Positions 1-39,033 of a stretch of DNA of 64,000 nt are shown one piece after another. A model generated the notes under the pieces. The model was not told where the DNA came from. It did not search any database and saw nothing but the letters and a program-made list of their open reading frames with translations. This DNA is from a virus: positions 1 through 64,000 of the IMG/VR virus record IMGVR_UViG_3300030339_000011; one strand, given 5' to 3'. How positions within the stretch are numbered: position 1 is the first letter of the stretch; each line of letters opens with the position of its first letter. The position numbers were made by a program, and so were the translations under genes.

Positions 1-170
1 AAAAATCTATTATTTACTTTATGATGTGTTTGGCGTTTTTTGCTCTATTTGTTATAAATATCAATTTGAATACATCATTCAGTGTTTTTCATACTGTTAT
101 GTCGTCATTATTAATTTGTGCTTCTGGTGTATGTTTAGGATTTGCAATTGGAAATTTAATAAATAAATGA
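1..170 (+). CDS. Small 2-TM membrane peptide, partial at window start; paralogue of 181..363
   Basis: Frame-3 translation KSIIYFMMCLAFFALFVINI...GVCLGFAIGNLINK* closely matches the next ORF. Confidence 0.55.
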   Translation, partial: KSIIYFMMCLAFFALFVININLNTSFSVFHTVMSSLLICASGVCLGFAIGNLINK

Positions 171-180
171 AAATTAAATA

Positions 181-363
181 ATGAAAAAATCTATTATTTA
201 CTTTATAATGTGTTTGGTTTTTTTGATTCTTTTTGTGTTATTTGGAATAAATCTTAATGAAAACACTCCTGTTAGTTATTTTAAAATTATCATATTATCA
301 TTTTTGATTTGTTCTGGTGGCGCTTGTTTATGTATTGCTCTTGGAAAAATTATAGATAAATAA
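181..363 (+). CDS. Small 2-TM membrane peptide, 60 aa
   Basis: ORF track. Two hydrophobic helices. Tandem paralogue of copies on both sides. Confidence 0.6.
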   Translation: MKKSIIYFIMCLVFLILFVLFGINLNENTPVSYFKIIILSFLICSGGACLCIALGKIIDK

Positions 364-368
364 AAATC

Positions 369-548
369 ATGAAAAAAATAAATTCTTCTTATTATTTTGC
401 AGCATCTGCATTTTTGTCTTTTCTGCTAGTTATTCTATTCATTTTAAATAAATCCATAGGATTAACTGATCCAGTATTTATAGTATTATTGTTCTGTGCT
501 GATGGATTATTTTTAGGAATTGGTGCTGGTAAACGTAGATATGAATAA
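369..548 (+). CDS. Small 2-TM membrane peptide, 59 aa, third tandem paralogue
   Basis: Manual translation MKKINSSYYFAASAFLSFLLVILF...GLFLGIGAGKRRYE*. Below the track's 60-aa cutoff. Confidence 0.5.
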   Translation: MKKINSSYYFAASAFLSFLLVILFILNKSIGLTDPVFIVLLFCADGLFLGIGAGKRRYE

Positions 549-562
549 TAAAAATTAAAATT

Positions 563-922
563 ATGAGAAAATTAAATAAATTCTCTGATAACTGTGACAA
601 ATTACAGTTTGGAGATTATATTCTATTTCAAGAATATAAAGATAAAAATTCACTAAGTGAAGATATGTTTAAAGTTACAAAACCTATATTCTCTATTTAT
701 CTTGGTTGCTTTGTTGCAGATATGGCGTTATCATTTAATTATGTTGAATGGATTAATGATAATAGAGAAGAAGTATCAGATTTTAAAAGTCACTATGAAT
801 GGGTTGATTGTGTGGATGTACTTGGTATTTGGAAAGTTAGACCAACATGGCAAGAAATTATTTCTAAATATAGAAATCAAGAAATTAAAGATTTTGTGTC
901 AAGTAATGATATTGATTGGTAA
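563..922 (+). CDS. Hypothetical protein, 119 aa
   Basis: ORF track. Sits in a codirectional gene block. The overlapping 657..932 ORF is low-complexity and rejected. Confidence 0.5.
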   Translation: MRKLNKFSDNCDKLQFGDYILFQEYKDKNSLSEDMFKVTKPIFSIYLGCFVADMALSFNYVEWINDNREEVSDFKSHYEWVDCVDVLGIWKVRPTWQEIISKYRNQEIKDFVSSNDIDW

Positions 923-931
923 TAATAAATA

Positions 932-1324
932 ATGACTGAATCATTAAATAATGATATTAAATATGTAATTGGTCAAAAAGTTTGGATTGAGTATTTAGGA
1001 AAATCTAAAAGAAAGGCTATTATACTTGGTATCAGTGAAGATATTATAAAAATAAAATTTTCATATTGGGGTGTTGATATTGAAGATTATGTTAGAGACA
1101 TTGAAGTTTTTCCTTTAATGATTGATGATTATATTAATGAGATTAAATTCACTATGAAAATATTAGGTTATGATTTGACTTTTGTTGAAAATTATTTAAG
1201 AAAAATTAAATTATTAAAATTGAATAATAATTCTAATAATAATATAACAAAAGAAGAAGAAGTTTTTGAGAATTTTGAAATTAAACATATTGAAGAATAT
1301 GTATTAAGAATTAAAAATAATTAA
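932..1324 (+). CDS. Hypothetical protein, 130 aa
   Basis: ORF track. Starts at 932; the preceding ORF ends at 922. Confidence 0.5.
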   Translation: MTESLNNDIKYVIGQKVWIEYLGKSKRKAIILGISEDIIKIKFSYWGVDIEDYVRDIEVFPLMIDDYINEIKFTMKILGYDLTFVENYLRKIKLLKLNNNSNNNITKEEEVFENFEIKHIEEYVLRIKNN

Positions 1325-1471
1325 TGTAGATGATTGAAAAAGTGTTGAATATCAGTGAGGAATTAAAAAGTAAATTACCTGATGATGCAAAAGATTTAAG
1401 AATGATTGATAGTAGATTATATTTCAAGACAAAAGTTGGTGGTAAAAAATTTATGATAAAGTATATAGAAT

Positions 1472-1651
1472 ATGAATAAAATTATAGGTAAAACAGAAGA
1501 AGAAGGAATAATAATATTAAAGGAAAATCATATAGATTATAGAGTTGTTAGAAAAAATTCTATTGATTATATAATCACTTGTGATTATATTCCTGAAAGA
1601 TTAAACTTAGAAGTTGATAATGGTATCATCACATCTTTTAGTAAAGGATAA
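1472..1651 (+). CDS. Small protein, 59 aa, possibly potato-inhibitor-I-like fold
   Basis: Manual ORF MNKIIGKTEEEGIIILKENHIDYRVVRKNSIDYIITCDYIPERLNLEVDNGIITSFSKG. Residue pattern resembles the I13 inhibitor family (weak match). Confidence 0.3.
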   Translation: MNKIIGKTEEEGIIILKENHIDYRVVRKNSIDYIITCDYIPERLNLEVDNGIITSFSKG

Positions 1652-1668
1652 ACAAAAACACTAATATT

Positions 1669-2319
1669 TTGAAAATTATATCAAAATTTAAAGATTATTA
1701 TGACTTCCTAACAGGTATTTATGGAGTAGATCCATTAATAGTTTTGGATCGGTTAGATTTTTCTATGCCAATATTTAGAAATTTTCCTCCTAGTAAGGCA
1801 TTTCCTGATGGTGATATTGAAGAAGGTAAGCTCAGATTATATATTGGAGGGTTTTATATTGAAGCATACTATAATGGTGATAAAATATATTATGGTGAAG
1901 AATTAAAACAATTTGCTATTGTAGAAAAGCACTCAAGTTGGTATTACAGATATCATATGAATAGTACAGAAAAACCAAAAGATAAGGTTTCTATTAAAGT
2001 TAAATCTTCCAGGTATCATTGTGAATCATTTAATTTGTTTATCATAAAAGATACATTAAAAATGAATGATAAATATAATTGTCCAATACTTTCAATAAAA
2101 AACGATGAGTCAGATAAAAACATACATAAAAATTGTATTTTAAAAGATTTAAATCTTAATTCGTTTATTTCACCTGAAGAAGTATATAAAATGATATCTG
2201 ATTGGATTTCATATCAACGAACAATTGCAGAGGAACATGTAGATACTATGACTAATGTTCAAAAAATAGAATCAAAAGGATTTGACAAAAAAACGTCTTT
2301 CAGACCTAATATGAAATAA
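1669..2319 (+). CDS. Hypothetical protein, 216 aa
   Basis: ORF track. Long uninterrupted ORF. Confidence 0.55.
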   Translation: MKIISKFKDYYDFLTGIYGVDPLIVLDRLDFSMPIFRNFPPSKAFPDGDIEEGKLRLYIGGFYIEAYYNGDKIYYGEELKQFAIVEKHSSWYYRYHMNSTEKPKDKVSIKVKSSRYHCESFNLFIIKDTLKMNDKYNCPILSIKNDESDKNIHKNCILKDLNLNSFISPEEVYKMISDWISYQRTIAEEHVDTMTNVQKIESKGFDKKTSFRPNMK

Positions 2320-2323
2320 TATT

Positions 2324-2500
2324 ATGATATACAATATTGTTGATTCTGAAACAGGACAAAATATCACATATGATAGTAATAGTAATAGTACTATTACTAA
2401 AATTAATACTGATAGAGAAAAACTTGATAGTATTGATGATAAAGTTATAGAATCTTACATAAGAGAGAAAAAATTAAATAATATTAAAAAATCAAAATAG
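2324..2500 (+). CDS. famB small protein, 58 aa
   Basis: Manual ORF ending ...DKVIESYIREKKLNNIKKSK*. Same C-terminal motif as the next two ORFs. Confidence 0.45.
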   Translation: MIYNIVDSETGQNITYDSNSNSTITKINTDREKLDSIDDKVIESYIREKKLNNIKKSK

Positions 2501-2503
2501 TTT

Positions 2504-2686
2504 ATGAATAATTTTCCTTCAGATTCATTTATTCATTCATGTGATAATATATTTTATGGTAAAAAGGCATATAAAAAAACTATTAAATATGAAGAATCAA
2601 TTGAGGATAAGCTTGATAAAATTGATTTTAGTATAATAGAAAGATATGTCAGGAATAAAAAATTAAAAAACATAAATAAGAAATAA
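2504..2686 (+). CDS. famB small protein (C-term IERYVRNKKLKNINKK)
   Basis: ORF track. Tandem paralogue. Confidence 0.55.
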   Translation: MNNFPSDSFIHSCDNIFYGKKAYKKTIKYEESIEDKLDKIDFSIIERYVRNKKLKNINKK

Positions 2687-2687
2687 T

Positions 2688-2885
2688 ATGTATAATTTAG
2701 AAGATGACTTGAATTTGAATTTTGATGCTTTAATTAATGAATATAAAAATAAAAGAAATCCTTATGATTACGTAAATATCAGAGATATTGAAGAAACTGA
2801 TGAAGAAAAACTTGATAATATTGATATTAGAGTAATTGAATCATATGTTAGAAAGAAAAAATTAGAAACCATAAATAAGAAATAA
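2688..2885 (+). CDS. famB small protein (C-term IESYVRKKKLETINKK)
   Basis: ORF track. Starts 2 nt after the previous stop. Confidence 0.55.
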   Translation: MYNLEDDLNLNFDALINEYKNKRNPYDYVNIRDIEETDEEKLDNIDIRVIESYVRKKKLETINKK

Positions 2886-2886
2886 T

Positions 2887-3117
2887 ATGAATAACGATGA
2901 ATTATTAGTAATGTTAAGCTGTGTTAGTAATAGAAGTTTGAATCAAACTAAACTATTATTTGATTTGTGTGATAATGACTTCGAAAAATTAATGAAAGTA
3001 GAAGCTTGTGTGAAAAAGACTTTTGTTTCTTATTGTCCAGGAGATAAGGAACTTGTTAATGAGTTAGTTAATACTTGGGATGAATTAAGAAAAAAAGAAA
3101 AATCTAAACAAAAATAA
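2887..3117 (+). CDS. Hypothetical protein, 76 aa
   Basis: ORF track. 2-nt spacing from the upstream gene. Confidence 0.45.
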   Translation: MNNDELLVMLSCVSNRSLNQTKLLFDLCDNDFEKLMKVEACVKKTFVSYCPGDKELVNELVNTWDELRKKEKSKQK

Positions 3118-3119
3118 TC

Positions 3120-3290
3120 ATGAATACATATTTATTAATATTGCTAGGTATTTGGATTGCATCATTGATTGGTGTTATTTCAATATTTGTTATTTCAAAT
3201 TATATTGAAAAAATAAAAAATAAAAGGTTTGTAGAGTGGTGGAACAAAAATATTAGTCATCTATTAAATCCGGATGATCCTAGATTTTAA
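3120..3290 (+). CDS. Small TM protein, 56 aa
   Basis: Manual ORF MNTYLLILLGIWIASLIGVISIFVISNYIEK... One hydrophobic helix. Confidence 0.4.
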   Translation: MNTYLLILLGIWIASLIGVISIFVISNYIEKIKNKRFVEWWNKNISHLLNPDDPRF

Positions 3291-3302
3291 ATCTAACAAC
3301 AG

Positions 3303-3533
3303 ATGTTTAAAACAGGCGAGAAAGTATTATGTTTGCTAGATGATTATAAATATGATTATTTATATGGATATCATGTTAGAACACAATTATTAAAAAAGGG
3401 TAAAATATATACTATCATGAATCCTTATGATATAAGTTTAGAAGAATTACCAAATTACTCATTCTCAGATGGACATTTTATGTCAATGAGTGAATTAAGA
3501 AAGAAAAAACTTATAAAATTATCTGAATGTTAA
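3303..3533 (+). CDS. famA small protein (KVGDKVVC / RFxxLxEYRKxKL family), first of the array
   Basis: ORF track. Motifs GEKVLCL and SELRKKKLIKLSEC. Confidence 0.6.
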   Translation: MFKTGEKVLCLLDDYKYDYLYGYHVRTQLLKKGKIYTIMNPYDISLEELPNYSFSDGHFMSMSELRKKKLIKLSEC

Positions 3534-3790
3534 ATATAGGAGATAAAGTAGTCTGTATTAAAACATTTGATAGTGACAGAATAATTTGTGATCAATTAAT
3601 TATTGGAAAAGAATATGAAATATTAGATATTCATCAGAGTGTATATCTATATGAAGATCTTGAATATTTTAAACTTGTTGGTGTTGCATATAATCAGGAG
3701 TCATATAAATTTTTATCTATTCCTGACTATATAAAAAAAGTGAGATTAGAAAAACTTAATATTATAAAAAATGTTAAAATCAGGAAATAA
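3527..3790 (+). CDS. famA small protein
   Basis: ORF track. MLNIGDKVVCI... 7-nt overlap with the upstream gene (stop lies inside ATGTTAA). Confidence 0.6.
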   Translation: MLNIGDKVVCIKTFDSDRIICDQLIIGKEYEILDIHQSVYLYEDLEYFKLVGVAYNQESYKFLSIPDYIKKVRLEKLNIIKNVKIRK

Positions 3791-4004
3791 AGTAGTGTGT
3801 ATAACTGATGAAGGTTATTATGAAAATCGTTATGCATTAAAAAAATATACTAATTATATTATAAGAGATGTTTATTATGAATCAGTTAAACTTTCATTAG
3901 GTAATGTATATGTTTATGATAGCGAAATAAACTGGCGTCCTACTCAATTTGTTAAATTATCTGAGTATAGAACACTTAAACTTAATAAATTAAAACTGTG
4001 CTAA
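3771..4004 (+). CDS. famA small protein
   Basis: ORF track. MLKSGNKVVCI...KLSEYRTLKLNKLKLC. Confidence 0.6.
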   Translation: MLKSGNKVVCITDEGYYENRYALKKYTNYIIRDVYYESVKLSLGNVYVYDSEINWRPTQFVKLSEYRTLKLNKLKLC

Positions 4005-4261
4005 AAATAGAAGATTATATAGTATGTATTGATGTTATTAGTCATACTAATAGTGATAAACTTACAGTAAAACATTTATCTCTAAATAAAAAATATTCAA
4101 TTAAAATATTTTTTGATAGAAATACTGGCTGTGAATATTCTTATTATCAGGATTATTTAATAGTTAATGAAATTAATCATTCATATATTTATGCTTCAAA
4201 TAGATTTATTACTGATAAAGAATATAGAAAACGTAAACTTTTAGAAATAGATAAATGTTAA
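3998..4261 (+). CDS. famA member whose ATG is replaced by CTG/GTG; either a non-AUG start or a decaying copy
   Basis: Position 3998 is GTG. The equivalent ATG of other units reads cTG here. The body is otherwise intact (LKIEDYIVCI...KEYRKRKLLEIDKC). Confidence 0.4.
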   Translation: MLKIEDYIVCIDVISHTNSDKLTVKHLSLNKKYSIKIFFDRNTGCEYSYYQDYLIVNEINHSYIYASNRFITDKEYRKRKLLEIDKC

Positions 4262-4725
4262 AAGTAGGGGATAAAGTAGTTTGTTTTGATATTATTAGCC
4301 ACACTAAAACAGATAATAATACAATAAAAAATCTAATATTAAATAAAACATATACGATTAAGATGTTTTATGATATAATTAATTCTAAAAAAACTAATTA
4401 TGATGACGATTATTTATTTGTCGAAGAGATTGATAATAGATGCATTTACTCATCAAGTAGATTTATGCTATTATCAGAATACAATAAAAAATTCAAAATT
4501 GGAGATAAAGTTGTATGTATAGATAATAGTGGCAAGACAATTAATTCATTAAAAAAAGGAGATATTTATACAATATCCAATTATGTGCCATATATTGATA
4601 AGTATGATGAAATAGTTGAAAATGTACATTTATATGAACAGCCTGGTGGTAGATATTATCCTGATAGATTTATGAAATTATCTGAATATAGAAAAAATAA
4701 ACTCTTAGAAATAGAAAAATGTTAA
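4255..4725 (+). CDS. famA double-domain protein (two units fused)
   Basis: 156 aa with two KVGDKVVC...RFM.LSEY repeats in a single frame. Confidence 0.6.
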   Translation: MLKVGDKVVCFDIISHTKTDNNTIKNLILNKTYTIKMFYDIINSKKTNYDDDYLFVEEIDNRCIYSSSRFMLLSEYNKKFKIGDKVVCIDNSGKTINSLKKGDIYTISNYVPYIDKYDEIVENVHLYEQPGGRYYPDRFMKLSEYRKNKLLEIEKC

Positions 4726-5000
4726 AGGTAGATGATAAGGTAATTTGTGTTGATAATGGTAGTCACAGTGAAAATGATAAACTCACAATTGGAGAATTGA
4801 AACTCAATAAAATATACACTATTAGAATATTTTTTGATAATGACACCAGAAAGAGAACTCAGTATTATACTGATCTTTTATTCTTTACTGAAATTAATGG
4901 TTGTTATTATTATCCATCTTATCGGTTCATGAAATTATCTGATTATAATAGAAAAAAGAAACTGTTAAAAATTGAGAAATGTGTGAATATATTAAATTAA
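4719..5000 (+). CDS. famA small protein
   Basis: ORF track. MLKVDDKVICVD...RFMKLSDYNRKKKLLKIEKC. Confidence 0.6.
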   Translation: MLKVDDKVICVDNGSHSENDKLTIGELKLNKIYTIRIFFDNDTRKRTQYYTDLLFFTEINGCYYYPSYRFMKLSDYNRKKKLLKIEKCVNILN

Positions 5001-5203
5001 TTGAACATTTTAAAGATGGTGATAGAATTGTTTGTGTTGATAACTCAGGATTAGGAAATGTTTTAAAAACTGGTACGACATATATTGCAGTAAGATTTAA
5101 CACAGAAGTTCATTGCATATCTTCAATGTCTTATACTCCACAAAGATTTATCACATTAAAAGAATATAGAAAACAGAAACTAATAAGAATAGAAGATGTA
5201 TGA
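4979..5203 (+). CDS. famA small protein (variant N-terminus)
   Basis: ORF track. GDRIVCVDN...RFITLKEYRKQKLIRIEDV. Confidence 0.55.
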   Translation: MCEYIKLIEHFKDGDRIVCVDNSGLGNVLKTGTTYIAVRFNTEVHCISSMSYTPQRFITLKEYRKQKLIRIEDV

Positions 5204-5441
5204 TTATATCGCAATAAATCAAAACGATAGATTTTATAATGGTGATAAAATAGTTTGTGTTGATAATGACAGAGTTGGAGAATTAAAAATTAATAAAATT
5301 TATATTGCTTGTATTGGATTTGAAATGATTAGAATAGTAAATTATAAAGATTATCCTATTGTTTATAAATCATATAGATTCATTCTATTGAAAGAATATA
5401 GAAAGCAGAAAATTAATCAATTGAAGAAATGTTCAAAGTAG
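5196..5441 (+). CDS. famA small protein
   Basis: ORF track. GDKIVCVDN...RFILLKEYRKQKINQLKKCSK. Confidence 0.6.
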   Translation: MYDYIAINQNDRFYNGDKIVCVDNDRVGELKINKIYIACIGFEMIRIVNYKDYPIVYKSYRFILLKEYRKQKINQLKKCSK

Positions 5442-5647
5442 GAGATAAAGTTGCTTGTATAAATGGCTTAGTTAAGAATACATATGTAAACAGTCTAAAA
5501 ATAAATAATATTTATACAATATCAGAGATTCGTGGTATATTGGTTAGATTACATGAAACTAATATATGCTACAACTCTAATAGATTTATGTCATTACAAG
5601 CTTATAGAAGAGTTAAACTTAATCAGTTGATGAAATGTTCAAAGTAG
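5429..5647 (+). CDS. famA small protein (MFKVGD subtype)
   Basis: ORF track. 13-nt overlap AAATGTTCAAAGTAG with the upstream gene. Confidence 0.65.
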   Translation: MFKVGDKVACINGLVKNTYVNSLKINNIYTISEIRGILVRLHETNICYNSNRFMSLQAYRRVKLNQLMKCSK

Positions 5648-5859
5648 GAGAAAGAGTTGTTTGTGTGAATGATAAGTCAATAATTCCAAATAAAATTCTA
5701 TTTATAAAAAAAAATAATATTTATATTATATCGGAAAATATAAATGATTCAGTTAAATTGATTGAAGATAATATATATCTTTATTCAGAGACAAGATTTG
5801 TATCATTAAAAGCTCACAGGAGAATTAAACTTAATCAGTTAATGAAATGTTCAAAGTAG
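5635..5859 (+). CDS. famA small protein (MFKVGD subtype)
   Basis: ORF track. Same 13-nt junction. Confidence 0.65.
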   Translation: MFKVGERVVCVNDKSIIPNKILFIKKNNIYIISENINDSVKLIEDNIYLYSETRFVSLKAHRRIKLNQLMKCSK

Positions 5860-6065
5860 GAGATAGAGTTGTTTGTATAAATGATATACCATTTAATAGA
5901 ATGAAACCTTTACTTAATATCTATAAATATAAAGTCTATACTGTAAAAAGTAGTGATGATGATTTTACCGAGTTATTTGAAACACATAATTTTTATAATT
6001 CTAATAGATTTGTTCTATTATCAAAAATAAGAAAACAAAAACTTAATAAATTAAACATATTATAA
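5847..6065 (+). CDS. famA small protein (MFKVGD subtype)
   Basis: ORF track. Same 13-nt junction. Confidence 0.65.
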   Translation: MFKVGDRVVCINDIPFNRMKPLLNIYKYKVYTVKSSDDDFTELFETHNFYNSNRFVLLSKIRKQKLNKLNIL

Positions 6066-6301
6066 TGGTTAAAATAGGAGATAGAGTAGTTTGTGTAAAT
6101 CCAGGTAAAATTAATTCTGAACACTTAAAAATAAAATGTTCATATTTAGTATTGTTTGTTATTGATTTTCATGCATCAGGATTAGATGGAGTTAAAATAC
6201 GTATAGATAATGATACTAAAATTTTTTATAAGATGAAAAGATTTATATTATTAAAAGAACAAAGAAGAGATAGATTAAAACAATTGGAATGTTCAAAGTA
6301 G
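6065..6301 (+). CDS. famA small protein (MVKIGDRVVCV)
   Basis: ORF track. TAATG junction with 1-nt overlap to the upstream gene. Confidence 0.6.
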   Translation: MVKIGDRVVCVNPGKINSEHLKIKCSYLVLFVIDFHASGLDGVKIRIDNDTKIFYKMKRFILLKEQRRDRLKQLECSK

Positions 6302-6534
6302 GAGATAAATTAGTTTGTATTGATATTGATAATCTGGTAAATATTGATAAATCATTATCATTAAATTATACTGAAATATACATAGTAACTAAATGCGATA
6401 GTATTAGAGTTGGAAGTGTAGAACTGAATAGTGTTGAAATAAATTGTCGTGATTTTCTTTATGACCGTAATAGATTTGTATTATTATCTGAACAAAGAAG
6501 AAATAAATTAAAACAATTGGAATGTTCAAAGTAG
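6289..6534 (+). CDS. famA small protein (MFKVGD subtype)
   Basis: ORF track. 13-nt junction. Confidence 0.65.
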   Translation: MFKVGDKLVCIDIDNLVNIDKSLSLNYTEIYIVTKCDSIRVGSVELNSVEINCRDFLYDRNRFVLLSEQRRNKLKQLECSK

Positions 6535-6752
6535 GAGATAAAATTCAATGTATAAATAATAAGAATTTGAATCATCTTAATAAATTAAATCAATTGAAAT
6601 ATTTTTGTGTTTATACTGTAACAGATTCTATGATAGTAGGAATTAAAATAAATGATCTTAATTGCATTTATTCTGAAACCAGATTTTTATTATTATCTGA
6701 ACAAAGAAGAAATAAATTAAATAAAATAAATAATTATGAATATAATATGTAA
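6522..6752 (+). CDS. famA small protein (MFKVGD subtype), last of the array
   Basis: ORF track. 13-nt junction. Confidence 0.65.
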   Translation: MFKVGDKIQCINNKNLNHLNKLNQLKYFCVYTVTDSMIVGIKINDLNCIYSETRFLLLSEQRRNKLNKINNYEYNM

Positions 6753-6948
6753 ATTTTTTGGACATAAGCCAGATTTAATCAAGCTTATTGATAGTGAAAT
6801 TGATCTGAGCAATAAAGACACTAATTACACAACTAACTGTACCAGATGTAATAAATTGATGACATATGATGAGTGTTGGAAACATAATTCATATAAAATG
6901 GTAATAATATTGCAGAATAAATTAAAAACTATATTAAAAAATAAGTAA
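6736..6948 (+). CDS. Small Cys-rich protein, possible zinc ribbon
   Basis: ORF track. Contains NCTRCNKLMTYDECWKH. Confidence 0.4.
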   Translation: MNIICKFFGHKPDLIKLIDSEIDLSNKDTNYTTNCTRCNKLMTYDECWKHNSYKMVIILQNKLKTILKNK

Positions 6949-6952
6949 AAAA

Positions 6953-7300
6953 ATGAGTAAATATATTTATATTAAAGCTGATACTAATGATGGTGATTAC
7001 ATTAGTAAAAAAAGTGAAATAACAGACGATCAAATTGAATTAATAAAACCAGTAATTGAACAACTTAAATTTCGTAAAGATAAACTTAACGAAGATAAAA
7101 TGCATAATTGGAATGAATGGCGTCATAACTGGGTAACATCAGAGTATTCAGAATCAACACTATATGATATGTATATAGAAACTAATTTATTGACTCAAGA
7201 ACAGGTTGATTCGTTCGATGAATTCGTTCCATTTGGTGAATATGGAGTTCATACTGTTGAAAGTGTTGAGATATTAAAAGAAGGTGAAATGTTATTTTAA
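6953..7300 (+). CDS. Hypothetical acidic protein, 115 aa
   Basis: ORF track. Followed by a terminator hairpin. Confidence 0.5.
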   Translation: MSKYIYIKADTNDGDYISKKSEITDDQIELIKPVIEQLKFRKDKLNEDKMHNWNEWRHNWVTSEYSESTLYDMYIETNLLTQEQVDSFDEFVPFGEYGVHTVESVEILKEGEMLF

Positions 7301-7302
7301 TA

Positions 7303-7337
7303 AAAAAAGGGAGAATCAATTGATTCTCCCTTTTTTT
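7303..7337. terminator. Bidirectional hairpin terminator between convergent genes
   Basis: Perfect palindrome GGGAGAATCAATTGATTCTCCC, with an A-run on its 5' side and a T-run on its 3' side. Confidence 0.6.
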
Positions 7338-7644
7338 AATCTATTTCATCATCTAATGTTTCTTTTGAATTTGATATTAGTTCTTTAATTTTATTCATGA
7401 ATAATTCCTTATCAAAATAACAGTCAGTTATATTTCCTTCTGATATTAGTTTTTTTATATGTTCATCATAATCTGTAATAGCAAATTCCCCTCCCTTGAA
7501 TACTATTAATGAATTTGGACTTCTTCCTTCTGAAGCATAATTTCCACAACTATGCAATACTAATATAAGTAAATCAATAGAATTATCTTTATAATTCTCC
7601 AATCCTCTCACAATTACTGATTCTTCTAACTGAATGTATTTCAT
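7336..7644 (-). CDS. Hypothetical protein, 102 aa
   Basis: ORF track. Confidence 0.5.
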   Translation of the reverse strand: MKYIQLEESVIVRGLENYKDNSIDLLILVLHSCGNYASEGRSPNSLIVFKGGEFAITDYDEHIKKLISEGNITDCYFDKELFMNKIKELISNSKETLDDEID

Positions 7645-7653
7645 AGTTTTTTA

Positions 7654-7908
7654 TTAAGAAATCATTTCATTGACATCTACAAATTCTACTTTATATGACA
7701 AATAATAAGGATCATGTTTGTCCTCATAGTATTTTTCAACTTTTGTTTCTACTTCAGTTTGTGATTCTGCTTCTACAATATGAAATTGTTCAGATGTTGA
7801 AGTTTTTCCTTCATAATAAGATTTGGTGACTTTCAAATGTGCTAAGTAAATCATATTTTTATATTTTTTAATTGTATTACAAAAGTAAACAAAAAAATCT
7901 GTTACCAT
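7654..7908 (-). CDS. Hypothetical protein, 84 aa
   Basis: ORF track. Confidence 0.45.
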   Translation of the reverse strand: MVTDFFVYFCNTIKKYKNMIYLAHLKVTKSYYEGKTSTSEQFHIVEAESQTEVETKVEKYYEDKHDPYYLSYKVEFVDVNEMIS

Positions 7909-7964
7909 ACTATGATAACAGATTTTTTATTTATTAGATACTATATTTAATATAAATTAAATAT

Positions 7965-20503: not shown

Positions 20504-20857
20504 TTATAAGTTAAATTTTCGTGCTTGTATTGTTGGTATAATATCTTCTTTCTTTATTAAATTTGAACTTCTACCTTTTCTTTTTTCTTCATATTCAGAT
20601 TCATTATCATAAATATCAGATGACTCAAAATCAATTGGTAGATTTTCTAATAAGAATTTTCCATCTAATTGAGCATATACTCCTAAGTAAATGTCTTTTT
20701 TATTTAATATGTATATATCATATTTTATGTTCTGTTTGTCTAATTTTTTCAAATCATTAAATACATCATCTATCTTATGATATTTTCCTTCTCCACTATA
20801 TAACTTATAATATATGTGAATTCTTTCGTTATTTTCATTGAATTTTAGTACTTTCAT
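20504..20857 (-). CDS. famC protein (C2). Start moved to MKVLKFNE
   Basis: Same junction logic as 19755..20165. Confidence 0.6.
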   Translation of the reverse strand: MKVLKFNENNERIHIYYKLYSGEGKYHKIDDVFNDLKKLDKQNIKYDIYILNKKDIYLGVYAQLDGKFLLENLPIDFESSDIYDNESEYEEKRKGRSSNLIKKEDIIPTIQARKFNL

Positions 20858-20858
20858 G

Positions 20859-21224
20859 TTATATGTTAAATTTATTTGCATTTAAAATTATTGGTATATC
20901 TTCTATTCTAATGATCTTATAACCAGCTCCTAAATACTCTTCTTCTATGTCTTCTTTACTTTTTGCTGATGATGAAATATATTCATATTTTAATATATTT
21001 CTTAAATGACAATCAGGATATATAAATATAAAAAAAACTCCAACTGTGTGATTATAAAGAAAGCTATAATCTACTTCATTCTTAGTTAATTCAACTAAGC
21101 AATTTAATAACACATTATATACATCATCAGTCTCAATATTAAATAACATATAATATATCTTATTTGGCTCATAAGTATTGTCTTCTGTATAAACAGAATT
21201 TTCATTAAATCTTTTTATATTCAT
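20859..21224 (-). CDS. famC protein (C2-like)
   Basis: MNIKRFNEN ... ANKFNI. Confidence 0.65.
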   Translation of the reverse strand: MNIKRFNENSVYTEDNTYEPNKIYYMLFNIETDDVYNVLLNCLVELTKNEVDYSFLYNHTVGVFFIFIYPDCHLRNILKYEYISSSAKSKEDIEEEYLGAGYKIIRIEDIPIILNANKFNI

Positions 21225-30794: not shown

Positions 30795-31241
30795 TTATAC
30801 AACTTTATAATCAAAATAATCTTTTATATTTTTATACTTAATTTCTAATTTTTTATTAAAGGTATATTGATAACTTCTATCTGATTTGACATCATTAAAA
30901 GTTACATTATATGTCCTAAAATGTTTAATGTCATTTAATTTATCAAATATGAACATTAAAGCACTTCTTTCATCAGGTAATCCATTATTAATTAAATAAT
31001 CTCTGATATTATAGTCACACATAAAAATATTTCTTAGATTATCTATCTCAAATAAACATATTCCTTTATCTACATCAGGCAATATCTTATCATCTTTATT
31101 ATCTATCTGGCATAATTTATTGTGACGTATGTATGATATGTCATAATACAATCCTATGACATCACGTGGTTGTTTAGTTCTAACTATATAGCAGGAATTA
31201 AATATACTCAAAAACCAGTTACTTAAATCTTTGTTGTCCAT
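30795..31241 (-). CDS. famE protein (MDNKDLSNWFLSIFNSCYIV...)
   Basis: ORF track. Paralogous to the 52530-53898 and 58164-59356 clusters. Confidence 0.55.
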   Translation of the reverse strand: MDNKDLSNWFLSIFNSCYIVRTKQPRDVIGLYYDISYIRHNKLCQIDNKDDKILPDVDKGICLFEIDNLRNIFMCDYNIRDYLINNGLPDERSALMFIFDKLNDIKHFRTYNVTFNDVKSDRSYQYTFNKKLEIKYKNIKDYFDYKVV

Positions 31242-31689
31242 ATGGTTTTAATATTGTATTAATATCTAATGAAGTTAATTTTAATTTAAGACTATCAATT
31301 TTAACAGTATTTATAACAGCAAAATATGTAGGAGTATAATCATGAAATCTAGTGTATTTCAATATCTCTTGTATAAATTTTTGAATATCATTATCAAGAG
31401 TTTTAGATTTTATATCAGATTCATTAAATTTCTTTCTTAAATGTGACCAAATAATATAATAATCACATGACATCATATTATATTTAATGTCAATGTCAAA
31501 TAATTTTATTCCTTTGTTGAAATTTGGAATAAATGATAATTCTTTTTTACTTATAACACACAATTTCTTACTACGAATAAATGACTTATCGTAATATAAA
31601 TATACATGATTAGGAAAAATATCACTTGATACTACATAGCATGACTTAAATTTACTCCAAAACCATTTACTTAATTCTTCTTTATCCAT
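31219..31689 (-). CDS. famE protein
   Basis: MDKEELSKWFWSKFKSCYVV... Confidence 0.55.
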   Translation of the reverse strand: MDKEELSKWFWSKFKSCYVVSSDIFPNHVYLYYDKSFIRSKKLCVISKKELSFIPNFNKGIKLFDIDIKYNMMSCDYYIIWSHLRKKFNESDIKSKTLDNDIQKFIQEILKYTRFHDYTPTYFAVINTVKIDSLKLKLTSLDINTILKPYGQQRFK

Positions 31690-34740: not shown

Positions 34741-35490
34741 TTATATGTTAAATTTTTTAGACATTCCCTGAGGAGTTTTAGAAAACCATTTCTTATATTC
34801 ATCTAAATTATCATAAGGTAAATTATTATCAGAGCAATTCAATGTTATTAATGTATCAGGTAACTCTGGTAGTTCTTTCAAATTATTATTTGAACAAGAT
34901 AAATATCTTAATGACTTAGGTATAAATAAAATTTCATTTAAAAGATTATATGAACAATATAATTCTTCTAATTTATCAGGTAAATGTGGTAAATTTGTTA
35001 AATTATTATATGAACAATCCAATGATTCTATTGTATTGGGTAATTTAGGTATCTCTATTAAATGATTTTTGTTGCAATATAAATATTCTAATTTTCCGGG
35101 TAATTCTGGTAATTCATTCAATTTATTATTAGAACAATATAATTCTAATAAAGTATCAGGTAATTTTGGTAACTCAGATATATTATTTTTAAAGCAATCT
35201 AAATATTCTAATCTTATTGGTAATTCTGGTAAATCCATTAACTTATTATTACCAGAATAAAGTATTCTTAAATTTTTAGGTAACTCAGGAAAGATTTCAA
35301 ATTTATTGTTACTAAAATTCAAATTTAATAATGTACTAGGCAATTTTGGTAAATATGTCAAATTATTGTCTTTACATACCAAATGTTCTAAGCCTTCATA
35401 TAACTCTGGTAATTCAGATAACCCGCTAAAAGAATAATCCAACTCTGTTTCAACACTCTCAACACTCTCAAATTTCTTTATATACTTCAT
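34741..35490 (-). CDS. famC LRR protein, 249 aa
   Basis: MKYIKKFES ... MSKKFNI. ~10 repeats. Confidence 0.75.
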   Translation of the reverse strand: MKYIKKFESVESVETELDYSFSGLSELPELYEGLEHLVCKDNNLTYLPKLPSTLLNLNFSNNKFEIFPELPKNLRILYSGNNKLMDLPELPIRLEYLDCFKNNISELPKLPDTLLELYCSNNKLNELPELPGKLEYLYCNKNHLIEIPKLPNTIESLDCSYNNLTNLPHLPDKLEELYCSYNLLNEILFIPKSLRYLSCSNNNLKELPELPDTLITLNCSDNNLPYDNLDEYKKWFSKTPQGMSKKFNI

Positions 35491-37086: not shown

Positions 37087-38970
37087 TTATTCATTAGCAT
37101 TTACAATTGTGTTCCTGTCGTATGCTAATTTTTGTTGTCCTGATGAATCTACATATAATTCTTTTGTGTAAGATTGATAAACATGAGTAGATGATGAGAA
37201 ATCCAATCCACCACTAGTACTAAATGAATCAAAAATATTATTCATTCTAAAATAACTTCCAATCCTATTATTTTGAAATAGATTTCCAATACTATTATAT
37301 CCAAAATTACTACCAATAGTATTATAATTAACAAAATTTCCAATAGTATTACCATAAAAATAACTATCAATACTATCATTTCTAAAATTACTACCAATAC
37401 TATTATTTATAAAATTACTACCAATACTATTATAATAAAAATAACTTCCAATACTATTATAATAAAAATCAATACCAATACTATTATATGCAAAATTACT
37501 ACCAATACTATTAGAATTAAAATTACTACCAATACTATTATATCCAAAATTACTACCAATACTATTCATTCTAAAATTACTACCAATACTATTATAATAA
37601 AAAACACTACAAATATTATTCATTCTAAAATCACTACCAATATTATTAGAATAAAAATCACTACCAATACTATTAGCATTAAAATAACTACCGATACTAT
37701 TAGAATTAAAATAACTACCAATACTATTATAAAAAAAATCACTACCAATACTATTAGCATTAAAATAACTACCAATACTATTAGAATAAAAATAACTACC
37801 AATACTATTAGAATAAAAATTACTACCGATACTATTAGAATTAAAATTACTACCAAAAATGACATTATTTGAATTATATAATATTTCTATATTTGAATTA
37901 GGAAATTGAATAATATTAGAATATGCTGTTTCATAATTACTCCAATCACTCCACATATTATAATCAGTATATTCGGTTGAACATGATATTCTTAAATTAC
38001 CAACAGATAAATTATCAGGAAAGATACTAATATAACTTAAATTATTCCATTCAAATAACTTCCAAACTTTTTCATTGTCTTGACTTGGATCTACATTGTA
38101 TGTATTATTAGTTATACAAATATAAATATTTAATGAATCTTTATATGAAACAACACTATTTCTAGTATAGGTTATTCCTGAAATCCAACTATTAGTAACA
38201 TTTATTTGCCATCTTCTAAACTTAGCTTGTCTAAAATCAAAAGGAATATCATTATTTTGTAATGTATCTATTCTTCTATAAATATATCCCTTTGTACAAC
38301 CTGGAATCATAACTTGATCATTTTTATGATTGTAATAAATTACATCCTGAGGATATAAAGTAGAATAAGCTTCTGGTTTCAATGTATTTAATCCACTAGC
38401 TGTAACTAATAACGGTTCAATGATACCAGTAGATAAATAATCATTTGGATATTCAAAAACCTTTGTATCACTCCAATAATTAGGTGATTCATTAGTTGCT
38501 ATAAATGGAACTCCATCACTTACATAACCTACATTACTAAAATCATCATCAGAGTTTTCATCAGGATTATTAGTTTTAAATAAGTAATATATGATATATT
38601 CCTTTCCTATTTCTAAATTATTCCAATATTCAGTGTACGGTATTACATGTACTGTCTGATAATCAGTTATTAAATATGAAGAATTTATTGTTAATCCACT
38701 ATTATTTATTAATTCACTCAATTCATTATATGTAACATTAGTTACTACACTTCCAGTACTTCCTGTATTTGATGTACCATCAACTCCTGATGTACCATTT
38801 AATCCATTTACACCTGAAGTTCCAGATGCTCCAGAATTTCCGTTTCCAGTTGTTCCTGTCATTGCATAAACTTCATTAAAATTGTTATTAATTTTAATGA
38901 ATGAATCTCTTAGATTATCACCAGTGCCGTCATTAGGATATGTGCCGATATTAATTGTTTGTTTGCTCAT
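37087..38970 (-). CDS. famF fibre-like protein, 627 aa. N-terminus GTGDNLRDSFIKINNNFNEVY (phage tail-fibre-like), Gly-rich GXY-like tract, conserved core domain, ~25 eight-residue NSIGSNF repeats, conserved C-terminus
   Basis: Core VTNVTYNELSELINNSGLTI..YLITDYQTVH..IEPLLVTASGLNTLKPEAYSTLYPQDVIYYN..TKGYIYRRIDTLQNNDIPFDFR..FRRWQI is shared with 39034, 40934, 59773 and 61973. C-terminus STHVYQSYTKELYVDSSGQQKL. Confidence 0.75.
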   Translation of the reverse strand: MSKQTINIGTYPNDGTGDNLRDSFIKINNNFNEVYAMTGTTGNGNSGASGTSGVNGLNGTSGVDGTSNTGSTGSVVTNVTYNELSELINNSGLTINSSYLITDYQTVHVIPYTEYWNNLEIGKEYIIYYLFKTNNPDENSDDDFSNVGYVSDGVPFIATNESPNYWSDTKVFEYPNDYLSTGIIEPLLVTASGLNTLKPEAYSTLYPQDVIYYNHKNDQVMIPGCTKGYIYRRIDTLQNNDIPFDFRQAKFRRWQINVTNSWISGITYTRNSVVSYKDSLNIYICITNNTYNVDPSQDNEKVWKLFEWNNLSYISIFPDNLSVGNLRISCSTEYTDYNMWSDWSNYETAYSNIIQFPNSNIEILYNSNNVIFGSNFNSNSIGSNFYSNSIGSYFYSNSIGSYFNANSIGSDFFYNSIGSYFNSNSIGSYFNANSIGSDFYSNNIGSDFRMNNICSVFYYNSIGSNFRMNSIGSNFGYNSIGSNFNSNSIGSNFAYNSIGIDFYYNSIGSYFYYNSIGSNFINNSIGSNFRNDSIDSYFYGNTIGNFVNYNTIGSNFGYNSIGNLFQNNRIGSYFRMNNIFDSFSTSGGLDFSSSTHVYQSYTKELYVDSSGQQKLAYDRNTIVNANE

Positions 38971-38994: not shown

Positions 38995-39033
38995 AAAAAC
39001 TCAGTTAAAATTAATTAACTGAGTTGTTTATTT

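What the first reader, a model, noticed from the sequence alone, without database searches (positions are those of the whole stretch)
5426..6540. famA array: a 13-nt out-of-frame overlap (AAATGTTCAAAGTAG) conserved at five or more junctions, derived from a 7-nt overlap by one substitution
In older units the stop of gene n lies inside codons 2-3 of gene n+1 (A ATG TTA AAG, which reads ..K C stop in the -1 frame). In six units a single A-to-C change (TTA to TTC) removes that stop and makes Leu2 into Phe. This extends gene n by S-K to the next stop (TAG). One mutation therefore changed two proteins, and the changed unit was then amplified. Unit lengths are all 3n+2. Unit 3998 has lost its ATG (CTG). 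It needs non-AUG initiation or coupling, or it is decaying. These features raise two possibilities: obligate termination-reinitiation coupling, or recurrent -1 frameshifting that would yield poly-domain proteins. The 4255..4725 two-domain fusion shows that both states exist.
Basis: seen in the sequence. Interest (0 to 1): 0.6.

Follow-up and report, generated by a model that had tools for sequence, protein, structure and literature searches.

The report
Overlapping starts in phage gene array
A T4-like phage carries 14 tandem copies of a small gene, each running 1 to 22 bases into the next; the repeated 13-base overlap is real, but it is an inherited by-product of stop codons hidden in the next gene's conserved first codons, and nothing points to programmed frameshifting.

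Summary
ATGTTCAAAGTAG occurs exactly five times (5429, 5635, 5847, 6289, 6522), and each time it is both the start of one famA gene and the last 13 nt of the previous one. One base (TTA versus TTC at codon 2) separates the 7-nt and 13-nt overlaps.

Three details are wrong:
- Unit 3998 starts with GTG (overlap GTGCTAA), not CTG.
- Two of the 13 unit periods are 3n+1.
- The polarity is probably reversed. TTC/Phe2 and the 13-nt junction occur in four other phage lineages, while TTA is confined to a few clades.

The array (3303-6752) sits in a T4-like phage with 23% GC that does not use Shine-Dalgarno sequences. Each unit encodes an SH3/KOW-like barrel followed by a basic C-terminal helix. The conserved first codons, ATG TTC AAA GTA GGA GAT AAA, contain stops in both other frames, so an upstream gene stops 7 to 25 nt after the next ATG. 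Orthologous junctions change frame through 1-nt indels.

There is no slippery heptamer and no downstream RNA structure, so programmed frameshifting is unsupported. Termination-reinitiation coupling is plausible but untested.

The array is actively remodelled: a unit deletion in a near-identical contig, gene conversion between paralogs, and a conserved in-frame fusion. One oddity remains unexplained: codon 2 strongly prefers the rare TTC.

The parts
3303..6752 (+). famA array: 14 consecutive genes with 15 domains, each about 75 aa (MxKxGDKVVC ... RF..L.EYRKxKL..L). All 13 junctions overlap.
   Evidence: ORF list and junction table; family profile hits at E 1e-19 to 3e-36 for every unit.
5429..5441 (+). 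13-nt overlap, junction W8/W9 (ATGTTCAAAGTAG)
5635..5647 (+). 13-nt overlap, junction W9/W10
5847..5859 (+). 13-nt overlap, junction W10/W11
6289..6301 (+). 13-nt overlap, junction W12/W13
6522..6534 (+). 13-nt overlap, junction W13/W14
3527..3533 (+). 7-nt overlap ATGTTAA, junction W1/W2
3998..4004 (+). 7-nt overlap GTGCTAA, junction W3/W4. Unit W4 uses a GTG start.
4255..4261 (+). 7-nt overlap ATGTTAA, junction W4/W5
4719..4725 (+). 7-nt overlap ATGTTAA, junction W5/W6. The same junction in L001 is a 17-nt overlap, caused by a 1-nt shorter A run.
3771..3790 (+). 20-nt overlap, junction W2/W3. The upstream gene is in the other alternative frame and stops at the TAA inside the (G)AAA TAA(A) codons.
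4979..5000 (+). 22-nt overlap, junction W6/W7
5196..5203 (+). 8-nt overlap, junction W7/W8
6065..6065 (+). 1-nt overlap (TAATG), junction W11/W12
4255..4725 (+). W5, a two-domain in-frame fusion. The joint ..EYNKK|FKIGDKVVC lies at 4483-4506, with the start codon and most of the C-terminal helix deleted. It is conserved in L001 and L018.
6479..6512 (+). 34-nt tract identical to 6688-6721 (C-terminal helix codons of W13 and W14). This is the crossover interval of the one-unit deletion variant L007.
6688..6721 (+). Partner copy of the 34-nt recombination tract
7301..7338 (+). Strong terminator-like hairpin with T run that closes the + strand block of small genes. Upstream of it the scan found only one weak terminator-like site, at 398-410.
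13314..13577 (-). Dispersed extra member of the family, outside the array
   Evidence: E=1.4e-10

Best explanation
The 13-nt overlap is an inherited junction state in a tandem array of paralogous small genes. Each gene encodes an SH3/KOW-like beta-barrel followed by a basic C-terminal helix. The array lies in a T4-like phage that does not use Shine-Dalgarno sequences.

No gene in the array has a stop codon of its own before the next ATG. Each gene ends at the first stop that appears, in its own frame, inside the next gene's conserved opening codons (ATG TTN AAA GTA GGA GAT AAA). Read from base 2 of the ATG, those codons give TAA at 7 nt when codon 2 is TTA, and otherwise TAG at 13 nt. Read from base 3, they give TAA at 8 nt (with TTT), TGA at 17 nt or TAA at 20 nt.

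Codon 2 toggles between TTA and TTC, and 1-nt indels near the 3' end switch the frame. Overlap length is therefore labile, and the upstream protein's last few residues are simply whatever the overlap spells. Phe2/TTC with a 13-nt overlap is old and probably ancestral. It was multiplied when units duplicated by unequal homologous recombination, which is still going on.

Expression (inferred, not shown): one long polycistronic mRNA, with each cistron started at its own AUG. Part of this would come from ribosomes that have just terminated 1 to 7 nt downstream and slide back (termination-reinitiation), and part from de novo initiation. There is no programmed frameshift.
For: - Exact junction anatomy.
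- The same 5' motif accepts upstream genes in either alternative frame. In L018 the upstream tails are ..CSK* (13 nt)..NVQSR* (17 nt) and ..NVQSRR* (20 nt). Of 60 family starts in ten loci, 51 have an upstream ORF reading across them, with overlaps of 1, 4, 7, 8, 13, 14, 17, 20, 25 and 52 nt.
- An orthologous junction changes from 7 nt (EKC*) to 17 nt (ENVKGR*) through a 1-nt A-run indel.
- The 13-nt junction is present in L018, L026, L028 and L031/L032. TTC is spread over the whole unit tree and TTA is restricted to a few clades.
- Array dynamics:
  - L007 is a one-unit deletion with its crossover inside a 34-nt identical tract. Six other contigs carrying the same protein are near-identical to the window (0-3 mismatches in 2-4 kb).
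  - L001 lacks unit 4 and carries a mosaic unit that is 97-100% W6-like in its middle.
- The array is one co-directional block with no terminator-like site between 410 and 7301. Only 2 of 124 non-famA genes have an SD-like motif.
- famA start contexts score below ordinary starts (p=0.007) but above internal ATGs (p=0.003).
- All 13 famA junctions overlap, against 29 of 110 other same-strand gene pairs.
- Stop-codon loss followed by extension to the next stop inside the downstream ORF is the accepted route to gene overlaps (PMC10666635, read).
- The E. coli re-initiation model predicts little difference between -7 and -13 nt (PMC4538824; the arithmetic is mine).
Against: - No expression data exist. 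Coupling, the operon structure and even the use of the annotated starts are inferred.
- The 17-nt block is more conserved than codon bias alone predicts. Identical codons at identical residues run at 95% for codons 2-6 against 69% in the interior.
- Codon 2 uses the rare TTC (21:4) while interior Phe codons are TTT (94:10). Some nucleotide-level constraint acts on the overlap that a purely passive account does not explain.
- Published E. coli and Haloferax data show that reinitiation is most efficient at -4 and -1. The 13-nt and 25-nt overlaps are not the optimal geometry.
Confidence: 0.75

Rival explanations
1. Programmed -1 ribosomal frameshifting at the junction (for example P-site slippage on A_AAG just before UAG) reads several units into poly-domain proteins.
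For: - 11 of 13 junctions in the window put the next gene in the -1 frame.
- The 13-nt junction contains A_AAG directly before a stop codon (sequence).
- The 17-nt block is unusually conserved.
- The same barrel exists as 2 to 17 in-frame copies in other proteins, and as the fused gene W5.
Against: - No X_XXY_YYZ heptamer lies at any 13-nt junction. Downstream 60-nt folds are no more stable than shuffles (z -0.55 to +0.14).
- There is no upstream SD-like stimulator, and the phage does not use SD at all.
- Two junctions in the window and many in relatives need +1 rather than -1. Orthologous junctions switch frame.
- The TTC codon destroys the T_TTA_AAG heptamer that the common Phe codon TTT would create.
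- Known fused forms are ordinary in-frame fusions.
Confidence: 0.05
2. The overlaps have no role in expression. Each AUG is used by independent de novo initiation on an unstructured AT-rich mRNA, and the overlaps are only neutral residue of compaction and tandem duplication.
For: - In a 23% GC, SD-less system any AUG sits in open RNA. Junction folds are weak (-4 to -7 kcal/mol) and no different from shuffles.
- Overlap length and frame drift freely among relatives, from 1 to 52 nt.
- Some family arrays have small gaps instead of overlaps (L021, L026).
- The E. coli model predicts weak re-initiation beyond about -10 nt and almost none at -25 (PMC4538824).
Against: - All 13 junctions in the window overlap, against 26% of other same-strand pairs.
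- famA start contexts are poorer than those of ordinary starts in this phage.
- There is synonymous-site constraint over the start and overlap.
Confidence: 0.3
3. The junction is kept identical at the nucleotide level because it acts as a recombination linker, or is homogenised by gene conversion. This would let units, and units of other small-gene families, be gained, lost and shuffled.
For: - The longest exact repeats between units are junction-centred or lie in the C-terminal helix: 34 nt, 28 nt (about 36 nt when read across the gene boundary) and 21 nt.
- The L007 deletion has its crossover in such a tract.
- L001 shows gene conversion between paralogs.
- In L024, genes of several N-terminal families share one junction sequence (..KLEKIxSKI*/ATG).
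- T4-like phages are known to shuffle hyperplastic-region genes through short conserved motifs (PMC4122927; only the abstract was seen).
Against: - The one mapped crossover lies in the C-terminal helix codons, not in the 13-nt overlap.
- The same 21-mer is identical in phages whose orthologous units are only 44-59% identical in protein. That needs selection, not only within-genome conversion.
- Interior regions of the units are diverged to 30-50% amino-acid identity, so homogenisation is at best very local.
Confidence: 0.2
4. Dual-coding selection. The overlap is conserved because both readings are needed as protein: MFKVGD as the start of the barrel and ..CSK as a functional C-terminal tail.
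For: - Frame-0 synonymous positions in the overlap are second codon positions of the upstream frame (sequence).
- TTC is strongly preferred over TTT only at codon 2.
- In L024 the tail ..KLEKIxSKI keeps Ser with AGC, AGT, TCA or TCG, including in genes not followed by a famA start.
Against: - The tail differs freely within the family: C*, CSK*, NVQSR*, NVKGR*, CSNLVTK*.
- TTC is also used where no upstream gene overlaps, and where the upstream gene is in the other frame.
- Other small proteins of this window with the same C-terminal helix have no conserved Ser-Lys tail.
- In L024 the AGG AGC/AGT version also spells AAGGAG 6 nt before the next ATG, so an initiation signal could explain it.
Confidence: 0.1

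Closest known systems
Co-directional overlapping gene pairs (ATGA, TAATG, -8) translated by termination-reinitiation (Huber et al. 2019, PMC6728339; Huber et al. 2023, PMC10666635)
   Same: Same-strand neighbours in one block, with the downstream start inside the upstream gene's end. No separate ribosome-binding spacer. The overlap phases are the same as for -1/-4 (here 1, 7, 13, 22) and -8 (here 8, 20).
   Different: Most overlaps here are longer than the efficient -4/-1 classes. The host system lacks Shine-Dalgarno sequences. Thirteen junctions occur in a row between paralogs. Dependence of downstream on upstream translation is untested.
Origin of overlaps by loss or shift of the upstream stop codon and extension to the next off-frame stop (discussion of PMC10666635; simulation study PMC3887535, abstract only seen)
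   Same: This is exactly the TTA/TTC toggle (TAA present or absent) and the 1-nt indel that turns a 7-nt overlap into a 17-nt one.
   Different: The next stop here is not a chance stop. It is supplied by strongly conserved opening codons, so the same few overlap lengths recur across paralogs and across phages.
Programmed -1 frameshift sites (dnaX; phage tail-assembly chaperone G/GT)
   Same: Two ORFs in a -1 relation with a short overlap. An A_AAG element sits next to the stop codon.
   Different: No slippery heptamer, no stimulatory structure or SD, and the frame relation is not conserved. The downstream ORF has its own conserved start codon.
Hyperplastic regions of T4-like phages and PeSL-mediated modular shuffling (PMC4122927; abstract seen)
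   Same: A T4-like genome with a block of small, variable genes of unknown function. Gene content differs between close relatives, and short conserved sequences at gene boundaries coincide with rearrangement.
   Different: No promoter/stem-loop cassettes separate the units. The conserved boundary is coding sequence (C-terminal helix plus next start), and the units are paralogs of each other.
Proteins with tandem SH3-like repeats (for example P0052 with 17 copies, P0053 with 12, P0072 with 3; weak Pfam DUF6501/SH3_15 matches)
   Same: Same beta-barrel, with an FKVGDKV.CID ... RF.L signature. P0072 even keeps ATG TTC AAA at each repeat start.
   Different: There the copies are joined in frame in one polypeptide and mostly lack the C-terminal helix. 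Here each copy is a separate cistron carrying that helix.

Membership tests
Termination-reinitiation coupled overlapping gene pair | Both genes on one strand and one transcript, with no terminator between them | tested here: met
   All 14 genes are on the + strand. The scan found no terminator-like site between 410 and 7301. The promoter scan was uninformative in this AT-rich DNA, so a single transcript is inferred.
Termination-reinitiation coupled overlapping gene pair | Stop of the upstream gene overlaps or lies within a few nt of the downstream start (classically -4, -1 or -8) | tested here: inconclusive
   Overlaps are 1, 7, 7, 7, 7, 8, 13 (five times), 20 and 22 nt. Only the 1-, 7- and 8-nt junctions are near the efficient classes. 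From the parameters in PMC4538824, re-initiation at -13 in E. coli would be only slightly lower than at -7.
Termination-reinitiation coupled overlapping gene pair | Translation of the downstream gene depends on translation of the upstream gene | not testable with these tools
   This needs reporter or ribosome-profiling experiments. The only indirect hint is that famA start contexts are weaker than ordinary ones.
Programmed -1 ribosomal frameshift site | Slippery heptamer X_XXY_YYZ in the upstream frame within the overlap | tested here: not met
   None at any of the five 13-nt junctions or the 7-nt junctions. The only heptamers (3766, 4692, 4952) lie upstream, and the one I checked, 4952, runs into a stop (TGA at 4973) (sequence).
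Programmed -1 ribosomal frameshift site | Stimulatory element (downstream hairpin or pseudoknot, or upstream SD-like sequence) | tested here: not met
   Downstream 60-nt MFE is -3.3 to -6.9 kcal/mol, z -0.55 to +0.14 against shuffles. No SD-like motif lies upstream of the famA starts.
Programmed -1 ribosomal frameshift site | Frame relation and shift site conserved among orthologs | tested here: not met
   Orthologous junctions differ in frame (window 4719 at 7 nt, L001 5946 at 17 nt). L018 uses the same start motif with upstream genes in both alternative frames.
Programmed -1 ribosomal frameshift site | A trans-frame protein product exists | not testable with these tools
   Needs proteomics.
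SH3-like / KOW-like small beta-barrel fold | Five-stranded small barrel | tested here: met
SH3-like / KOW-like small beta-barrel fold | Sequence membership in a curated KOW or SH3 family | tested here: not met
   No Pfam family reaches its threshold for any unit. DUF6501 matches 2 of 50 members weakly. PHROG 14634 ('DNA binding protein') matches 7 of 50, best E 1.2e-7.
Tandem paralog array maintained by unequal homologous recombination | Three or more adjacent homologous units in one orientation | tested here: met
   14 genes with 15 domains. Syntenic arrays have 10 units in L018 and 3 in L026.
Tandem paralog array maintained by unequal homologous recombination | Copy-number variants among close relatives, with breakpoints in shared homology | tested here: met
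   L007 carries a W13/W14 hybrid with its crossover in a 34-nt identical tract. L001 lacks W4 and has a converted segment.
PeSL-type modular shuffling of T4-like hyperplastic regions | Promoter plus stem-loop cassettes flanking the shuffled ORFs | tested here: not met
   No terminator-like stem-loops lie inside the array, and the units overlap with no intergenic DNA between them.

The most novel reading that the evidence does not exclude
The array is a 'split repeat protein'. The barrels that other organisms join covalently (up to 17 per chain) are here made as separate cistrons. Each carries a portable basic C-terminal helix (..E.Y[ILV]R.KKL..I) that is shared by at least 30 small genes of several families in this window. 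The helix would act as a common docking or oligomerisation module. The unbroken chain of overlapping starts, with its constrained stop-free TTC codon 2, would enforce sequential, stoichiometric, co-translational assembly of hetero-oligomers in an SD-less host.
Probability: 0.12. Interest if true: 0.6.

Novelty: new member of a known kind. Interest (0 to 1): 0.3.

Why it matters
As a mechanism this is ordinary. A stop codon gained or lost at a gene boundary changes overlap length and the upstream protein's tail, and tandem duplication copies the result.

It is still a clear natural example of three things:
- Conserved opening codons can act as a stop trap in both alternative frames.
- One base or a 1-nt indel can re-tailor two proteins at once.
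- A phage gene family can move between separate overlapping cistrons, in-frame fusions and unit gain or loss within populations.

The family is large (5,313 cluster representatives at E <= 0.001) and absent from Pfam. It may be worth characterising, together with the C-terminal helix shared by many small genes of this phage. The unexplained TTC bias at codon 2 could inform how starts are selected in hosts without Shine-Dalgarno sequences.

Tried and rejected
- **Known phages, DNA.** blastn of 3000-8000 against 50,697 phage records found no match.
- **Known phages, protein.** tblastn of unit W9 gave only marginal hits (E about 3e-3) to Acinetobacter podophage 'DNA binding protein' genes.
- **IMG/VR scan.** An exact scan for the 18-mer junction gave 9 single hits. 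None encodes a family member, so they are unrelated or chance matches.
- **Promoter scan.** 79 sites found against 85.5 expected, so it is uninformative at 23% GC.
- **TTC as avoidance of the T_TTA_AAG slippery heptamer.** Not sustained. TTC dominates whether or not an upstream gene overlaps and in both frames, and three T_TTA_AAN junctions exist (L024 6856, L028 11297, L033 4301).
- **AGGAG inside GTA GGA GAT as a Shine-Dalgarno sequence.** Rejected. It lies downstream of the ATG, I saw no in-frame start downstream of it, and the phage does not use SD.
- **Pfam search of other small genes with the C-terminal helix.** Nothing found.
- **Foldseek against viral structures.** Only uncharacterised proteins.
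- **Ideas not tested.** A RegB/RegA-type RNA site over the start, and restriction-site (TTTAAA) avoidance. TTTAAA is visibly present in the region.
Full report
**1. What is there.**
- Positions 3303-6752 (+) hold 14 back-to-back genes with 15 domains. Each encodes a protein of about 75 aa with the signature M-[FL]-K-x-G-D-K-V-V-C ... R-F-x-x-L-x-E-Y-R-K-x-K-L-x-x-L.
- The units are only 27-50% identical to the first unit in protein.
- Every junction overlaps. The overlaps in order are 7, 20, 7, 7, 7, 22, 8, 13, 13, 13, 1, 13 and 13 nt.
- ATGTTCAAAGTAG occurs exactly five times in the 64-kb window (5429, 5635, 5847, 6289, 6522), against 0.00 expected. At those five sites 17 consecutive bases, ATGTTCAAAGTAGGAGA, are invariant, while the flanks fall to about 40% pairwise identity.
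- In the upstream gene's frame the block reads TGT TCA AAG TAG (..CSK*). In the downstream frame it reads ATG TTC AAA GTA G (MFKV).
- In the 7-nt junctions (3527, 3998, 4255, 4719) codon 2 is TTA or CTA, and the upstream gene stops at TGT TAA or TGC TAA (..C*).

**2. Corrections to the observation.**
- The 15-mer in the title is exact at three junctions only.
- Two of the 13 unit periods are 3n+1 (244 and 217 nt).
- Unit 3998 begins with GTG at 3998-4000. The CTG at 3996-3998 is the upstream gene's Leu codon. The overlap is GTGCTAA. The unit is intact (E=2.6e-23 to the family profile) and is present in the near-identical contigs that reach it, L002, L005 and L006.

**3. Genomic setting.**
- The window has about 23% GC and no tRNA genes. 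It has no relative among 50,697 deposited phage genomes.
- It is part of a contig of about 178 kb that has been recovered many times from metagenomes.
- T4 gp9/gp10-like baseplate proteins and T4_Y16D in syntenic relatives mark it as a T4-like myovirus.
- Only 2 of 124 non-famA genes have an SD-like 4-mer at -18..-4, which is below the 4.7% background. The upstream regions are A/T-rich and G-poor instead. The host therefore initiates without Shine-Dalgarno pairing.
- A Fib_succ_major domain in a large neighbouring protein hints at a Bacteroidota/Fibrobacter-type host. This is inference.
- The whole stretch 1-7300 consists of + strand small genes, closed by a strong hairpin terminator at 7301-7338.

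**4. The protein.**
- An AlphaFold2 model built from 50 homologs has mean pLDDT 89. It shows a five-stranded small barrel followed by a helix at residues 56-71.
- No Pfam family reaches threshold. PHROG 14634 ('DNA binding protein') is hit weakly by 7 of 50 members. Viral structure matches are all uncharacterised.
- A profile search of 1.84 billion cluster representatives finds 5,313 proteins at E <= 0.001. The top hits are long proteins with 3 to 17 in-frame copies of the barrel, for example P0052 (1,890 aa, 17 stretches), mostly lacking the C-terminal helix.
- P0072 has three in-frame copies and keeps ATG TTC AAA at each repeat start (..ETMFKIGDKV..).
- The function is unknown.

**5. Why the overlaps have these lengths.** The conserved opening codons ATG TTN AAA GTA GGA GAT AAA contain stops in both other frames.
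- Read from base 2 of the ATG: T TAA if codon 2 is TTA (7 nt), otherwise TAG from GTA GGx or ATA GGx (13 nt). If the valine is replaced (CCT GGT ...), the stop comes only at 25 nt.
- Read from base 3: TT TAA with TTT (8 nt), TGA from GGT GAT (17 nt) or TAA from GAT AAA (20 nt).
- All of these occur:
  - In L018, a syntenic 10-unit array from a 235-kb contig, the identical start ATGTTCAAAGTAGG[AT]GATAAA follows upstream genes ending ..CSK* (13 nt)..NVQSR* (17 nt) and ..NVQSRR* (20 nt).
  - Of 60 family starts in ten loci, 51 have an upstream ORF reading across them, with overlaps of 1, 4, 7, 8, 13, 14, 17, 20, 25 and 52 nt. The loci are not independent.
- Orthologous junctions change state:
  - Window 4719 has gaaaaATG (7 nt..EKC*), while L001 has gaaaATG (17 nt..ENVKGR*).
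  - Window 3771 has TTA where L001 has TTC.
- The overlap length and the upstream tail are therefore consequences of where the next stop happens to fall. This is the standard route to gene overlaps described in PMC10666635.

**6. Polarity and amplification.**
- Orthology by best match and by NJ tree: W2~R4, W3~R5, W5~R6, W6~R7, W8~R8, W12~R9, and W13/W14~R10. W4, W7 and W9-W11 have no counterpart in L018.
- The two 13-nt junctions of L018 (7379, 7603) correspond to W8/W9 and W12/W13, although the orthologous proteins are only 44-59% identical.
- L026 is a 130-kb relative with three units next to the same vault-protein gene. It has a 13-nt junction too, as do L028 and L031/L032.
- TTC at codon 2 is scattered over the whole tree, and the family consensus is MFKVGDKVVC. 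TTA/CTA is confined to the W2-W6/R4-R5 clades.
- The tree is star-like and weakly resolved. Even so, parsimony favours Phe2/TTC with the 13-nt overlap as the older state and TTA with the 7-nt overlap as derived, which fits C-to-A change under AT pressure.
- Local duplication did multiply the junction. W13/W14 group with the single L018 unit R10; the 12/13 and 13/14 junctions share 28 identical bases within the genes, about 36 read across the gene boundary. W9/W10 are sisters.

**7. The array is being remodelled now.**
- Six metagenomic contigs differ from the window by 0-3 bases over 2-4 kb.
- A seventh contig carrying the same protein, L007, has one hybrid gene where the window has W13 and W14. 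It is W13 up to a 34-nt tract that is identical in both units (6479-6512 and 6688-6721), and W14 after it. This is a one-unit deletion by unequal homologous recombination, or the reciprocal of the duplication.
- L001 lacks W4. Its first W5-like domain is a mosaic whose middle 60-75 nt are 97-100% identical to W6, while its flanks are W5-like. That is gene conversion between paralogs.
- The two-domain gene W5 is an in-frame fusion (..EYNKK|FKIGDKVVC, joint at 4483-4506). It has lost the start codon and most of the helix, and it is conserved in L001 and L018. It is therefore an old, stable fusion, not evidence of recoding.

**8. Frameshifting.**
- None of the five 13-nt junctions, and none of the 7-nt junctions, has an X_XXY_YYZ heptamer in the upstream frame.
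- The 60 nt downstream fold no better than shuffles (z -0.55 to +0.14).
- There is no SD-like stimulator.
- The frame relation is not conserved (section 5).
- P-site slippage on A_AAG before UAG cannot be excluded by sequence alone, but nothing supports it.

**9. Coupling.**
- Geometry, read from the sequence:
  - At a 7-nt junction the terminating ribosome has UGU in the P site, one base from AUG.
  - At a 13-nt junction the P-site codon is AAG, and the ribosome would have to move back 7 nt.
- In the E. coli model of Tian and Salis the re-initiation coefficient is 0.022 at -4 and about 0.007 from 0 to +25. It falls by 0.0004 per nt beyond -10 (PMC4538824). By my arithmetic -13 is about 0.006 and -25 about 0.001.
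- On that model the TTA/TTC switch should barely change coupling, while the 25-nt overlaps of L024 should nearly abolish it.
- Indirect hints for coupling here:
  - 13 of 13 junctions overlap, against 29 of 110 other same-strand pairs.
  - Upstream-context scores of famA starts (mean -0.5) lie between those of ordinary starts (+1.4; p=0.007) and internal ATGs (-2.6; p=0.003).
- This evidence is weak, and de novo initiation on open AT-rich RNA is a serious alternative.

**10.
- Among the MFK-type units of the window and L018, identical residues use identical codons in 95% of cases at codons 2-6, against 69% in the interior. The baseline is high because codon bias is strong (AAA 82%, GAT 88%, GTA 47%, GGA 51%, TTC 17%).
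- The clear outlier is codon 2. Phe there is TTC 21 to TTT 4 across five loci, whereas Phe in the interior of the same genes is TTC 10 to TTT 94 (Fisher p = 5e-13; the copies are not independent).
- TTC is used with upstream genes in either frame and with none. So neither avoidance of the T_TTA_AAG heptamer nor the upstream ..CSK tail explains it by itself.
- TTC is the only TTN codon before AAA that creates no stop in either alternative frame.
- This constraint is real and unexplained.

**11. Verdict.**
- The mechanistic core (one base, two proteins) is right. The polarity, the 'lost ATG', the 'all 3n+2' claim and the frameshift idea are not.
- The feature is a new example of a known kind: stop-shift overlaps in a recombining tandem gene family of a T4-like phage.
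- Interest is modest. The more intriguing leads are the fission/fusion behaviour of this large uncharacterised barrel family, the C-terminal helix shared by many other small genes (see the passing notes), and the codon-2 constraint.

Noticed in passing
window 2324-2885 (+), 12021-13075 (-), 13314-16534 (-): A C-terminal motif [IL]E.Y[ILV]R.KK[LI]..[IL], the same as the famA C-terminal helix, ends 18 of 88 other small ORFs (140 aa or less). Only 2.4% of internal control windows match it. With famA, more than 30 genes in 64 kb carry it on different N-terminal domains. It may be a portable docking or oligomerisation helix, or a junction cassette. These proteins have no Pfam match.
   Followed up: partly
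L024 1894-11099 (12-kb metagenomic contig, 24% GC); similar in L025 and L033: More than 30 consecutive small genes of several N-terminal families, most ending ..LRRxKLEKIxSKI*. Most junctions overlap the next start by 4 nt (ATGA) or 25 nt. Ser in the tail is coded by AGC, AGT, TCA or TCG. In the ..IRSKI* version AAGGAG lies 6 nt before the next ATG. A Cas12f1-like_TNB (TnpB-type) gene fragment lies at the contig start.
   Followed up: partly
window 7965-10424 (-): An 819-aa homolog of eukaryotic major vault protein (MVP_shoulder 9e-28, Vault_3, Band_7/SPFH). It lies directly downstream of the array and is conserved at the same place in L018 and L026.
   Followed up: no
whole window: The phage shows essentially no Shine-Dalgarno use: 2 of 124 genes, which is below background. 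Regions upstream of starts are A-rich (77% A at -10) with about 5% G.
   Followed up: partly
codon 2 of famA genes (for example window 5432-5434): There is a strong position-specific preference for the rare Phe codon TTC: 21 to 4 at codon 2, against 10 to 94 in the interior of the same genes. It does not depend on the frame or presence of an upstream overlap. Unexplained.
   Followed up: partly
proteins P0052-P0056, P0072 (from the profile search); L030 2681-3268: The same barrel occurs as 3 to 17 in-frame tandem copies in long proteins elsewhere. P0072 keeps Met-Phe-Lys (ATG TTC AAA) at each repeat start, which suggests fusion of formerly separate cistrons.
   Followed up: partly
window 21-548 (+): Three tandem paralogs of a protein of about 50-60 aa that looks like a membrane protein from its sequence (..LICSGGACLCIALGKIIDK).
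   Followed up: no
window 13139-15662 (-), 20504-21224 (-), 30795-31689 (-): Other gene pairs show recurrent long overlaps of 14, 17 and 23 nt, three to four of each. Several of these proteins carry the C-terminal helix motif, so conserved long overlaps are not unique to famA.
   Followed up: no
window 34741-35490 (-), 43424-44140 (-), 40934-43333 (-), 37087-40872 (-): Two leucine-rich-repeat proteins, a 799-aa protein with a Fibrobacter succinogenes major domain, and two paralogous proteins of about 620 aa with T4 gp9/gp10-like N-termini. These look like a baseplate or receptor-binding module and give a hint about the host.
   Followed up: no
window 6736-6948 (+): The gene after the array (70 aa, Cys-rich: ..NCTRCNKLMTYDECW..) overlaps W14 by 17 nt. 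It is retained, with the 115-aa gene that follows it, in L018 and in the near-identical contigs.
   Followed up: no
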